Counted from the first letter of the stretch, positions 20,703-53,895 are shown. The stretch is DNA of 64,000 nt from an uncultured Armatimonadetes bacterium (GCA_963717145.1 OY970325.1:1-64000), one strand, 5' to 3'. Translations and numbers: made by a program. The notes: a model not told the origin generated them from the sequence alone.

Positions 20703-20983
20703 TTCTTGAGGGAAGGCTCTATGATTCAGCGATCGCCCCTTGGGACCAGGAACCGGGTAGGGACGCCTCGCTGAGGCGTCCGCTCCCCGACGGACCGCTC
20801 GGCCCGCCGTCGCCGGGCTTTGGCGGGGCGAGCGAGCGGTCCCTACCAGAGTCACGGTTCATGGAAAGCCTCCATGATTCAGCAATCACGTGTTGGGACC
20901 ATGAACCTCGGCGTAGCGGCGCTCGGCAGAGCGCCGGTGACTGCGCCTTGGCAGGAGATGGCGGCTCTCTGCCGAGAGCCGCT
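20703..20983. repeat. Mosaic array: 52-bp unit / REPIN / 52-bp unit / REPIN (last REPIN interrupted by an IS)
   Basis: Degenerate unit at 20703-20754, GTAG..CTAC at 20757-20846, unit with perfect 9-bp ends at 20856-20907, and GTAGCGGCGCTCGGCAGAGCGCCG from 20913. Confidence 0.8.
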
Positions 20984-21031
20984 CTGGAGTTTGGCCCTGA
21001 CTAGATGCGCCCGCATGGCGTGCCTTTTTTG

Positions 21032-21061
21032 TTGACATATATCTAGTCTTATGACTAGATT
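21032..21061 (+). promoter_or_regulatory. IS promoter with overlapping palindromic operator
   Basis: TTGACA-18 nt-TAGATT. Inverted repeat ATCTAGTC-ttat-GACTAGAT at 21041-21060, with an extra GACTAGAT half-site at 20999-21006. Confidence 0.7.
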
Positions 21062-21069
21062 AGCCCCGT

Positions 21070-21285
21070 ATGGGTTATCCCACGAAACTCCAGTGTATCC
21101 AACGCCAGGACTCCCAGCAGTTCTACATCAACTTCCCCACCCCCCTGGCTCAAGCCCTCGACTTCCAAAAAGGCGAGCAGCTCGAATGGACCATCGTGGA
21201 CAAGGGGCACTTGGTCCTCTCCCGCCAGTTGGTGCCCCCAGACCCGGTCCCGTTCAAAAAAAAACCTCCCTCCTGCAAAACCTGA
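21070..21285 (+). CDS. IS orfA, small AbrB/MazE-like DNA-binding protein
   Basis: 71 aa. QFYINFPTPLAQALDFQKGEQLEWTI fits the swapped-hairpin (AbrB) pattern. The ORF ends over an A9 run (KKK). Confidence 0.7.
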   Translation: MGYPTKLQCIQRQDSQQFYINFPTPLAQALDFQKGEQLEWTIVDKGHLVLSRQLVPPDPVPFKKKPPSCKT

Positions 21286-22675
21286 ACGCCCTGCTGGATC
21301 GTGCTCTGGTCGCCTCCAGCCAACGGGCCCGCCACGCCGCCCATGCCTTGGCCCAACTGGTCACCTTGGGCCGCCACACCCTCACCGGTCTGCTCACCGC
21401 CCAGAACCGCCAGCAAGAAGATTGGACGGCTGATTACCGCTTCTACAGCCGCGGCCGCGTCCAACCCCAGGCCTTATTCACCACCGCCCGGCAGTCGGTC
21501 GAAGCGGCCCTGCGCCCCGAGGCGCCCCTGGTGGTGGGGGTGGACGACTCGCTCCTGCCCAAGCGCGGCCGCCGCATCCAGGGCACGGCCTGGCGGCGCG
21601 ATCCGCTGGGACCGCCCTTCCAGGTTCAGTTCACCTGGGCCCAACGGGTGCTCCAGTTCTCGGCGGCCCGCCCCCTGGGTCCGGCCGGGGCGGTGCGGAT
21701 GGTGCCGATTGATTTTGTCCACGCCCCCACCCCCGCCAAACCGCGCCAAGGGGCCGACGACGACGCCCGCGCCGCCTACCGCCAAGCCGCCAAGCAGGCC
21801 AATCTGGTCGCCCTGGCCCAGCGACGCTTGGTCGACTTGCGAGCGCAGGTTCCGGCGCAGCGCCTCATTCATGTGGTGGGAGACGGACGCTACAGCAACA
21901 AGACTCTGCTGCGCAAACGACTGCCGGGCACCGTCTATATTGGACGCATCCGCAAAGACAGCGCCTTGTTCCAGGCGCCTCCAGCCCAGCCGGCCACGGG
22001 CCGCAAACGCATTTACGGGGCCCGGGCGCTCACGCCCGAACAACTGCGCCAAGCCGAGGATCAGCCCTGGGGGACAATAAACGCCTATGCCTGTGGCAAG
22101 GTCCATGAGTTCCAAGTCAAAGTGCTGGCAGAGGTGCGCAGCCCCCTGTGTGGCAACGCCCCCGTCTTGGTGGTGGTTATCAAGCCCTTGGGCTACCGCT
22201 TGCGCCAAGGCGGCAAGCTGCTCTATCGCCAGCCGGCTTATCTCTTGTGTACCGACCCGAGTGTGCCGGTGGCACAGGTGGTGCAGGAGTATCTGTGGCG
22301 GTGGGATATCGAGGTCAACTTCCGGGAGGAGAAGACGCTGGTGGGGGTGGGGCAGGCTCAGGTGCGACTGGCCGCTTCGGTGGAAGCGGTGCCGGCCTTG
22401 GCGGTGGGCGCGTATGCGTTGTTGCAGGTGGCGGCCTTGGAAACCTACGGAGACTTGGGGCAGCCGCAGGCGGTGCCCTTGCCCGATGGCGTCGGGCCCA
22501 CCCGCCCACGCGCGCCACCAGCGGCAGACTGATCAACCAGTTGCGCTATGAACTCTGGGCCAGCGCTCTGCGGCCGGAGAGTTTAGCCGGCTTCACGTCA
22601 CGAAGCAGCCCAGACCAGAAGCCCGAAAAACTTAACCCCACCCTTGCCAGTGCCACCTTCTATGCAACCAACTGA
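21256..22675 (+). CDS. DDE transposase (orfB; in the -1 frame relative to orfA; apparent extra frameshift near 22485)
   Basis: Acidic triad motifs GVDDSLLPKRG, VVGDGRYS and YLWRWDIEVNFREEK. The C-terminus continues in ORF 22148..22675, whose stop abuts the right TIR. Confidence 0.88.
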
Positions 22676-22794
22676 GCCAAACTCCAGGGCGGCTCTCTGC
22701 CGAGAGCCGCTACGAGGGTACGGTTCATGGAAGTTCGCACGGCACCGCCTGTTTCGAGGGGTTTCCACGGAGCGGTGGTCTCGTCGGTGAGCCC

Positions 22795-53640: not shown

Positions 53641-53895
53641 GGGTCATGAAGAGCCTCCACGATTTCAGGAGCGCGCAATGGGCCCATGAACATCGGCGTA
53701 GCGGCGCTCGGCAGAGCGCCGGTGACTGGGCCTTGGCAGGAGATGGCGGCTCTCTGCCGAGAGCCGCTACGAGGTTACGGTTCATGGGCAGCCTCCATGA
53801 TTCCTTGAACGCGCGTTGCCACCATGAAGCGGGTAGGGCCGGACCGCCGGGCCGGCCGGTTCTGGGGAGGCGCGCCCGGCGGTCGCGCCCCACCT
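53641..53895. repeat. Mosaic array: 52-bp unit / REPIN / 52-bp unit / REPIN; contains the IS-free target site
   Basis: Units at 53641-53692 and 53779-53830. REPINs at 53698-53770 and 53833-53893. A single copy of the 24-mer lies at 53745-53768. Confidence 0.85.

What the first reader, a model, noticed from the sequence alone, without database searches (positions are those of the whole stretch)
20960..22711. DDE insertion sequence that targets a REP hairpin and duplicates the entire 24-bp hairpin
Seen: the IS (12-bp TIRs) is flanked by a perfect 24-bp direct repeat, GGCGGCTCTCTGCCGAGAGCCGCT, which is exactly one stem-loop (GCGGCTCTC-tgcc-GAGAGCCGC). A nearly identical uninterrupted REPIN at 53698-53770 carries this 24-mer only once, so the second copy looks like a true target duplication. 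Known: DDE elements usually duplicate about 2-14 bp, long variable duplications are known for IS1549/IS1634, and REP-targeting is known for IS1397 (IS3) and IS621 (IS110). Inference: strand transfer at the two bases of an extruded cruciform would make TSD length equal hairpin length. That would be a structure-guided safe-harbour targeting mode that I do not recognise for IS701/IS4-like enzymes.
Basis: partly seen in the sequence, partly recalled or inferred. Interest (0 to 1): 0.88.

Follow-up and report, generated by a model that had tools for sequence, protein, structure and literature searches.

The report
Jumping gene that duplicates whole hairpins
This is a real insertion sequence from a widespread, mostly uncultivated group whose members land on DNA stem-loops of any sequence and leave a complete copy of the stem-loop on each side, a targeting mode I found drawn only as a hypothetical pathway in print.

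Summary
A 1704-bp IS (20984-22687, 12-bp perfect TIRs) lies between two perfect copies of a 24-bp stem-loop, and the paralogous REPIN at 53.7 kb carries that 24-mer once.

In long-contig or complete genomes, 19 of 24 related copies (43-100% transposase identity, TIR CTnnnnTTTGGC) are flanked by perfect direct repeats of 15-31 bp. Each repeat is a different complete stem-loop plus 0-1 nt per side. One complete genome has 5 of 5, another 6 of 6, a third 5 of 6.

Of 143 IS ends examined, 136 abut a perfect hairpin, against 53 of 1220 control positions.

The transposase is IS701-like. Its best model is NF049999, just under cut-off. It carries a full YREK motif. It does not make the family's canonical 4-bp duplication.

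The closest known behaviour is IS1272 (IS1182 family), which also targets hairpins by structure but deletes them. The paper describing it drew whole-stem-loop duplication only as a hypothetical pathway.

Strand transfer at the 5' feet of an extruded cruciform is the best mechanism, but it is inferred, not shown.

The window's copy is single and carries a 1-nt frameshift.

Verdict: new variant of a known kind, of high interest.

The parts
20960..20983 (+). Left copy of the duplicated target: a 24-bp stem-loop (9-bp stem, 4-nt loop, 1 unpaired nt per side). It is the body of a GTAG-tagged REP read on the minus strand.
20984..22687 (+). Insertion sequence, 1704 bp, single copy in this genome
   Evidence: Contigs from other samples start exactly at 20984 and stop exactly at 22687.
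20984..20995 (+). Left terminal inverted repeat CTGGAGTTTGGC
   Evidence: Conserved as CTnnnnTTTGGC across relatives.
21070..21285 (+). Upstream 71-aa ORF, weakly AbrB/MazE-like. It lies in the -1 frame relative to the transposase and ends just after the A9 run.
   Evidence: Pfam PF04014 E 0.018, below cut-off. Arrangement conserved.
21256..21264 (+). A9 run, a candidate recoding (slippage) site joining the upstream ORF to the transposase frame
   Evidence: 75 of 82 related copies keep an A8 or A9 run here. QKKT is conserved in homologues.
21258..22532 (+). Main transposase frame (IS701-like DDE), broken near its C-terminus
22481..22482 (+). Site of a 1-nt deletion (CCCC to CCC) that shifts the last ~75 codons into another frame. 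The C-terminal part continues to the stop at 22673-22675.
   Evidence: Homologues read AVPLPQWRRAHPP in frame. Contigs of runs X1 and X2 have an extra C behind 22481.
22676..22687 (+). Right terminal inverted repeat GCCAAACTCCAG
22688..22711 (+). Right copy of the duplicated 24-bp stem-loop, followed by AC, which completes the GTAG tag on the minus strand
20913..20938 (+). Partner GTAG-headed REP of the REPIN that was hit
53698..53772 (+). Paralogous uninterrupted REPIN. The 24-mer is present once, at 53745-53768. It serves as a stand-in for the empty site.

Best explanation
The element is a DDE insertion sequence of a distinct IS701-like clade. Its transposase chooses targets by DNA structure, not sequence: it inserts at short stem-loop-forming palindromes (REPs, terminators and other hairpins). 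[quoted passage not shown] Gap repair then copies the whole stem-loop, so the IS ends up between two intact copies of the hairpin and the duplication length equals the hairpin length (15-31 bp seen). Shown here: the whole-hairpin duplication, its variable length and sequence, and its generality. Inferred: the most economical way for one synaptic complex to make cuts 15-31 bp apart with no shared sequence is to act on the palindrome extruded as a cruciform. In a cruciform the two 5' feet lie opposite each other across a four-way junction. Because both flanking hairpins stay intact, the target's own function (terminator or REP) is kept on both sides.
For: Window: a perfect 24-bp hairpin repeat, with one copy in the paralogous REPIN. 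G041, a complete chromosome: 5 identical IS copies, all 5 with perfect repeats of 18, 22, 19, 30 and 21 bp, each a different stem-loop. G182, one contig: 6 of 6, with 20, 21, 19, 17, 18 and 23 bp. G398: 5 of 6, with 31, 24, 28, 26 and 25 bp; the sixth is a 30-bp repeat with 3 loop mismatches. G051: 24 bp. G042: 1 of 2, 15 bp. Overall 19 of 24 long-contig copies and 9 of 44 short-contig copies are perfect. All 16 repeats that I folded form one stem-loop spanning the repeat, at -4 to -17.8 kcal/mol. In 21 repeats the unpaired overhangs were (1,1) in 14, (0,0) in 6 and (1,0) in 1. 136 of 143 IS ends abut a perfect hairpin of stem 5 or more within 2 nt, against 53 of 1220 control positions. For stems of 7 or more the figures are 123 of 143 against 7 of 1220. 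Uninterrupted members of the composite repeat hit in L092 carry the central hairpin once in other genomes. Pre-existing tandem hairpins are rare: 0 in register and 2 in any rotation among 44 tandem duplications of 15-31-bp units in this genome. The transposase has invariant D106/D107, D219 and E362, and Y-x2-R-x3-E-x6-K. Its best family model is IS701. A low-confidence model's top six fold hits are all Tn5 transposase. Precedent: IS1272 targets hairpins of 21-85 bp by structure, and its authors modelled a cruciform target (PMC5678879).
Against: No transposition was observed, and no orthologous empty site was found for any copy; only a paralogue and family-level stand-ins exist. Searches among relatives found no syntenic empty site. 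35 of 44 short-contig copies, and L097, L079, L099, L129 and L101 among the long-contig ones, lack a perfect repeat. I attribute most of these to chimeric assembly of a multi-copy repeat, which is shown only for L099, whose missing left junction sits on another contig of the same genome (L110). L029/L030 hint at the same. L097 and L079 remain unexplained. Spontaneous cruciform extrusion of 5-9-bp stems is energetically unfavourable (general knowledge), so the protein would have to induce or trap the structure. The cut position varies between 0 and 1 nt from the stem. The window's own copy is frameshifted and single, so nothing can be said about its activity.
Confidence: 0.8

Rival explanations
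1. Same whole-hairpin duplication, but the target is not a double-stranded cruciform. Each IS end captures a hairpin folded on transiently single-stranded DNA, at a replication fork or a transcription bubble, possibly in two steps.
For: The stems are short (5-14 bp), so spontaneous cruciforms are unlikely. Many targets look like terminators or REPs, which fold when single-stranded.
Against: A DDE enzyme of the Tn5/IS4 type normally makes concerted attacks on both strands of a duplex (general knowledge). The 0-1-nt offsets are symmetrical on both sides, which fits a two-fold symmetric junction. No orientation data bear on this.
Confidence: 0.13
2. A wide, ruler-less stagger on ordinary B-form DNA, as assumed for IS1634/IS1549, with only a preference for palindromic sequence.
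For: Long variable duplications exist in the related IS1634 family.
Against: The duplication boundaries coincide with the stem feet to within 0-1 nt in all 21 repeats analysed. The hairpins share no sequence. A fixed synaptic complex cannot span 15-31 bp of B-DNA in variable helical phase (inference).
Confidence: 0.04
3. The IS inserted without a long duplication between two hairpins that were already tandem, or the hairpins belong to the element as extended inverted repeats.
For: A palindrome on each side also reads as an extension of the inverted repeats. REPs often occur in clusters.
Against: Identical IS copies in one genome carry different hairpins. Uninterrupted paralogues carry one hairpin. 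Tandem whole-hairpin duplications are 0 to 2 in 5.37 Mb.
Confidence: 0.02
4. Assembly artefact at this one site.
For: No read or contig on hand bridges the window's two junctions.
Against: The genome is a single 5.37-Mb contig. The same architecture recurs in at least six other independent assemblies.
Confidence: 0.01

Closest known systems
IS1272 / TnSha1 (IS1182 family), staphylococci (Wan et al. 2017, PMC5678879; Furi et al. 2016, PMC4923244)
   Same: A DDE IS that picks targets by hairpin structure with no shared sequence. Targets are 21-85 bp, often terminators. The authors proposed a cruciform target and drew a 'pathway b' in which attack at the 5' feet would duplicate the whole stem-loop.
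   Different: IS1272 removes all or part of the hairpin and leaves no duplication. Here the hairpin is kept and doubled. The transposases are not the same family: no IS1182 model appeared among the NCBIfam hits at E up to 0.1. The sections I read gave no natural example of pathway b.
IS701 family (De Palmenaer et al. 2008, PMC2266710)
   Same: Best profile matches are IS701 models. NF049999 scores 158-166 bits at E 1e-46 to 1e-48. PF13546 scores 45 bits for the G041 element. One long DDE ORF, 1.7-1.9 kb.
   Different: The family is described as making duplications of 'exactly four bps' and as mostly lacking the YREK tyrosine (passages). This clade makes 15-31-bp hairpin duplications and has the full Y-x2-R-x3-E-x6-K motif. 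Scores fall just under the 170-bit cut-off. The ends do not fit the family's tabulated end consensus.
IS1634 / IS1549 (long, variable direct repeats)
   Different: No link to hairpins is known to me. The NCBIfam IS1634 model matches only at E 0.0017. Here the length is set by the stem-loop.
REP-targeting insertion sequences: IS1397/ISKpn1 (IS3), IS621, ISPpu9/10, ISPa11 (IS110), ISPsy8, ISRm22 (Tobes & Pareja 2006, PMC1525189; PMC8450116)
   Same: They insert into extragenic palindromes and leave genes intact.
   Different: Those elements break the REP at a fixed internal position, depend on its sequence, and make repeats of 0-6 bp. This clade hits unrelated hairpins and leaves the hairpin whole on both sides.
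Cas1-Cas2 spacer integration
   Same: Staggered attacks at the two borders of a roughly 30-bp, often palindromic, repeat duplicate the whole repeat.
   Different: Unrelated enzyme. The target is sequence- and leader-defined. This is an analogy of outcome only.

Membership tests
IS701 family | Transposase matches the family's curated profile above its cut-off | tested here: inconclusive
   NF049999 is the best hit but falls below 170 bits: 158 for the window, 164.6 for P0001, 165.5 for P0005 and 166.5 for G041. PF13546 is above cut-off only for the G041 element. No Pfam hit for the window ORFs.
IS701 family | Target duplication of 4 bp (De Palmenaer 2008) | tested here: not met
   28 perfect duplications of 15-31 bp and none of 4 bp. 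Family value from passages.
IS701 family | Variant YREK motif, tyrosine mostly absent | tested here: not met
   Y355, R358, E362 and K369 are invariant in 19 sequences, with spacing 2-3-6.
IS4 family (sensu stricto) | DDE triad plus complete YREK motif | tested here: met
   D106/D107, D219, E362 and YREK are invariant. The top six fold hits of a low-confidence model are Tn5 transposase, E 1e-3 to 6e-3, TM about 0.24.
IS4 family (sensu stricto) | Profile match above cut-off, and duplications of about 8-13 bp | tested here: not met
   IS4 models score 19-38 bits against cut-offs of 115-250. Duplications are 15-31 bp and hairpin-defined.
IS1182 family (IS1272-like hairpin targeting) | Transposase homology to IS1182-family models | tested here: not met
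   No IS1182 model is among the hits at E up to 0.1.
IS1182 family (IS1272-like hairpin targeting) | Structure-specific insertion at stem-loops of unrelated sequence | tested here: met
   136 of 143 ends abut a hairpin against 53 of 1220 controls. The hairpins are unrelated in sequence. The outcome is opposite: duplication here, deletion there.
REP/REPIN of the GTAG-tagged class (the target in the window) | GTAG head followed by a GC-rich stem-loop, repeated in the genome, in inverted pairs | tested here: met
   Both hairpins of the site begin GTAG on their own strand. There are 189 GTAG-headed perfect hairpins in the genome. A RAYT partner was not looked for.

The most novel reading that the evidence does not exclude
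A large clade of IS4/IS701-superfamily transposases, found mostly in uncultivated bacteria, works as a structure-specific integrase of four-way junctions. It recognises or induces a cruciform at any short palindrome and transfers its ends 0-1 nt outside the two 5' feet. It is thereby the first natural example of whole-stem-loop target duplication, the mirror image of IS1272's stem-loop replacement. It would also be in-vivo evidence that short palindromes are read as cruciforms by a DDE enzyme. The insertion regenerates its own safe-harbour target on both sides.
Probability: 0.55. Interest if true: 0.88.

Novelty: new variant of a known kind. Interest (0 to 1): 0.8.

Why it matters
Target choice by DNA shape rather than sequence is rare among DDE transposons, and its mechanism is unsolved even for IS1272. 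A family whose footprint records exactly where both strands were attacked (the two feet of a stem-loop, whatever its length) gives a clean, testable model for how a transposase reads a hairpin or cruciform.

It also explains long, variable 'duplications' that standard IS annotation would miss or misread as long inverted repeats.

The mode is a natural safe harbour. It lands in extragenic hairpins and leaves a working copy on each side.

The clade is common in soil, wetland and freshwater metagenomes: 3594 homologues at E 1e-10 or better among 8000 candidates scored. IS-finding software that expects duplications of 2-14 bp will mis-set its boundaries.

Tried and rejected
Read-level check of the window's junctions. 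All 21 runs found were Logan contigs. The four I laid cover the IS from other genomic contexts and do not bridge this site, so the call says nothing for or against the assembly here.

Orthologous empty sites. DNA searches of 40 relatives of G000, 30 relatives of G041 and the 7 genomes of G398's genus found flanking genes at 70-79% identity but no syntenic uninterrupted site.

Plasmid collection. tblastn gave 1 weak hit and no annotated IS name.

PDB sequence search. Nothing relevant.

Structure prediction. Mean pLDDT was 54 with 19 close sequences. The Foldseek hits to Tn5 transposase are weak, with TM about 0.24.

Literature. Eight full-text searches found no description of whole-hairpin duplication by a natural IS. 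Several papers opened on keyword hits were irrelevant. Siguier et al. 2014 and 2015 are not held, so their remarks on IS1182 members and palindromes were seen only as cited. I recall an ISfinder table giving IS1182 repeats of 0-60 bp but could not check it. ISfinder itself, and the supplementary files (for example Additional file 8 of PMC2266710 and S3 Fig of PMC5678879), could not be consulted and may bear on novelty.

Rejected readings:
- Hairpins as part of the IS.
- Insertion between pre-existing tandem hairpins.
- Insertion in the loop followed by regeneration of the hairpin. No mechanism would stop at the stem.

Earlier notes of this scan. No look-alike of the transposase was found.

Full report
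THE OBSERVATION. One search shows the 24-mer GGCGGCTCTCTGCCGAGAGCCGCT at 20960-20983. It is followed by CTGGAGTTTGGC (20984-20995), then 1680 bp, then GCCAAACTCCAG (22676-22687), then the same 24-mer at 22688-22711. The bases just outside the repeat differ, so it is exactly 24 bp. As single-stranded DNA it folds into one stem-loop: 9-bp stem, 4-nt loop, one unpaired base per side, -11.7 kcal/mol, and none of 200 shuffles folds as well.

The 24-mer occurs three times in the 5.37-Mb genome: the two flanks and 53745. At 53745 it sits once between the same neighbouring bases. That locus is the only other copy of this repeat variant. It is 88% identical over 130 nt and 97.7% over 43 nt, so it is a paralogous stand-in for the empty site, not the empty site itself. 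Both hairpins of the REPIN begin GTAG on their own strand, and the genome holds 189 GTAG-headed perfect hairpins. This agrees with earlier notes of this scan on the same genome. The IS is single copy, with no miniature derivatives.

THE ELEMENT. The long ORF matches IS701-family models best. NF049999 gives E 3e-46 and 158 bits against a cut-off of 170. Intact relatives score 164-166 bits, still just under the cut-off. Pfam finds nothing in the window's ORFs, but it finds PF13546 in a 49%-identical relative.

A search of 5.8 billion proteins gave 3594 hits at E 1e-10 or better among the 8000 candidates scored. Most lie on contigs of 1.7-2.5 kb, as expected for a repeat that breaks assemblies. 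Nineteen close relatives share invariant D106/D107, D219 and E362 and a complete Y-x2-R-x3-E-x6-K motif. A low-confidence structure model (pLDDT 54) has Tn5 transposase as its six best fold matches, but weakly.

The window's copy lacks one C after 22481 relative to its homologues and to contigs of two other samples. This shifts the last ~75 codons into another frame.

DOES THE HAIRPIN DUPLICATION GENERALISE? I fetched 80 metagenome loci and 18 genome loci encoding relatives, and more from whole-genome searches. The ends are conserved as CTnnnnTTTGGC down to about 43% transposase identity. The results by genome:
- G041, one complete chromosome: five identical copies, all flanked by perfect repeats of 18, 22, 19, 30 and 21 bp, each a different stem-loop.
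- G182, one contig: six of six, with 20, 21, 19, 17, 18 and 23 bp.
- G398: five of six, with 31, 24, 28, 26 and 25 bp. The sixth is a 30-bp repeat whose copies differ at three loop positions, in an IS copy that carries a stop codon.
- G051: 24 bp.
- G042: one of two, 15 bp.

Counting the window, 19 of 24 copies on long contigs have perfect whole-hairpin repeats (one search gives 15 of 19; add L099 and four more).

The five without a perfect repeat:
- L129: the imperfect 30-bp repeat described above.
- L099: its missing left junction, with the matching 20-bp hairpin, lies at the edge of another contig of the same genome (L110). The contig is therefore a collapsed join of two copies.
- L097 and L079: different hairpins on the two sides, unexplained.
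- L101: a 35%-identical relative whose right end I could not place.

On short metagenome contigs only 9 of 44 copies have a perfect repeat. Yet nearly every end still abuts a hairpin. Over all 82 copies with both ends, 136 of 143 assessable ends have a perfect stem of 5 bp or more within 2 nt of the IS. That compares with 53 of 1220 control positions in the same loci. For stems of 7 bp or more the figures are 123 of 143 against 7 of 1220. I read the unlike flanks on short contigs as assembler joins of flanks from different copies. L029 and L030, from sister samples, carry the same hairpin on opposite sides of the IS. This reading is inferred, not proved.

ANATOMY OF THE DUPLICATION. In 21 perfect repeats the repeat is the stem-loop plus one unpaired base on each side in 14. 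It is exactly the stem-loop in 6, and asymmetric (1,0) in 1. The six exact cases are about the quarter expected if the rule were 'one base outside each foot' and the two outer bases paired by chance. I offer that only as a reading. Stems are 5-14 bp and loops 2-5 nt. The sequences are unrelated and include AT-richer stems (L157) and terminator-like hairpins with a T-run (L128, L034). The target is therefore a shape, not the REP sequence.

RIVALS EXCLUDED BY DATA. The hairpin is not part of the IS, because identical copies carry different hairpins. It was not already tandem. The paralogue in the window has one copy. Uninterrupted members of the three-hairpin composite repeat hit in L092 carry the central hairpin once in other genomes. 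Among 44 perfect tandem duplications of 15-31-bp units in this genome, none is a whole stem-loop in register, and two are in some rotation.

MECHANISM. To duplicate segment H, each 3' end of the element must be joined to the strand it attacks at the 5' side of H. That is a 5' stagger equal to the length of H. This follows from the standard chemistry of DDE strand transfer, as set out in PMC5678879 section 29.

A single transposase complex cannot span 15-31 bp of B-form DNA in varying helical phase, and no sequence is shared. In a cruciform the two 5' feet face each other across the junction. A stagger equivalent to 0-2 bp would then produce every length seen. I therefore favour attack on an extruded or protein-induced cruciform, at roughly 0.6 within the overall reading. 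Capture of hairpins on transiently single-stranded DNA is the main alternative. Neither has been tested.

COMPARISON WITH WHAT IS KNOWN.
- IS701 family: described as making duplications of exactly 4 bp and mostly lacking the YREK tyrosine (passages of PMC2266710). This clade fails both features and sits just under the profile cut-off. It works unlike IS701 and is at most a distant sister group.
- REP-targeting ISs: they break the REP at a fixed internal point and make repeats of 0-6 bp (passages of PMC1525189 and PMC8450116).
- IS1272/TnSha1 of the IS1182 family: the nearest behaviour. They target hairpins of 21-85 bp by structure, but delete them and leave no duplication (PMC5678879 abstract and sections 22, 24 and 29; PMC4923244 passages). 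[quoted passage not shown] In what I read they gave no natural case. The present clade is that case, in an unrelated transposase lineage.

Eight full-text searches found no description of it. ISfinder, the Siguier reviews (not held) and all supplementary files were out of reach. Both IS1272 papers cite Siguier et al. 2015 as saying, without data, that some IS1182 members target palindromes.

VERDICT. The element is a new variant of a known kind: structure-directed hairpin targeting with the opposite outcome, in a different family. Confidence is 0.8 for whole-hairpin, structure-directed duplication. The cruciform step is inferred. Interest is 0.8.

Noticed in passing
window 21070-21285 and 21256-21264; related loci: A 71-aa upstream ORF, weakly AbrB/MazE-like (E 0.018), ends just after an A9 run and lies -1 to the transposase frame. 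75 of 82 related copies keep an A8 or A9 run at this place. In 66 of those 75 a -1 relation is possible, and in 28 it is the only one. It looks like programmed frameshifting or transcriptional slippage producing an OrfA-transposase fusion.
   Followed up: partly
window 22481: The window's copy lacks one C present in homologues and in contigs of two other samples, which puts the C-terminal ~75 residues out of frame. It is either a decaying copy or a homopolymer error in the assembly.
   Followed up: partly
window 20999-21006, 21041-21048, 21054-21061: The octamer GACTAGAT occurs three times (one inverted) just inside the left end, around a TTGACA-like hexamer and the start of the upstream ORF. 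These may be binding sites for the small ORF product or the transposase. ACTAGA is also conserved in relatives' left ends.
   Followed up: no
L076, right flank: After the right end and a 19-nt hairpin, a new left end of the same IS begins (IS-hairpin-IS). This could be a second insertion into the duplicated hairpin, a junction of abutted ends, or a graph artefact of the assembler.
   Followed up: no
L129 (G398:C3): The two 30-bp flanking hairpins differ at three clustered loop positions, while the IS itself is almost identical to its sisters. This may be a template-switch mutation in a quasi-palindrome or conversion by another repeat copy.
   Followed up: no
L011/L085 and L066: The left flank of L085 is the reverse complement of the right flank of L011, beyond the hairpin as well. 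In L066 the right flank is the reverse complement of the left. Either the same repeat is hit in both orientations or the assemblies are chimeric.
   Followed up: no
L092 flanks; L141 (G411:C301), L142 (G417:C130): A composite three-hairpin repeat (GTCCC..GGGAC, then CCCACCGTT..AACGGTGGG, then GTCCC..GGGAC-like) is shared at 86-96% identity by several distantly related genomes. In G411 it forms an array spaced about 350 bp apart.
   Followed up: partly
P0001 residues ~286-309 (window about 22090-22160): Two invariant Cys-Gly pairs (C289 G290, C308 G309) lie between the second D and the E. There is a chance-level profile match (E 0.41) to the zinc-ribbon RNA polymerase subunit P. This may be a small insertion domain.
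   Followed up: no
window 20984 and 22687, in runs X2 and X5: Near-identical copies of this IS in other soil and sediment samples sit next to other hairpins, so the element is or recently was mobile in nature (loose ends).
   Followed up: partly
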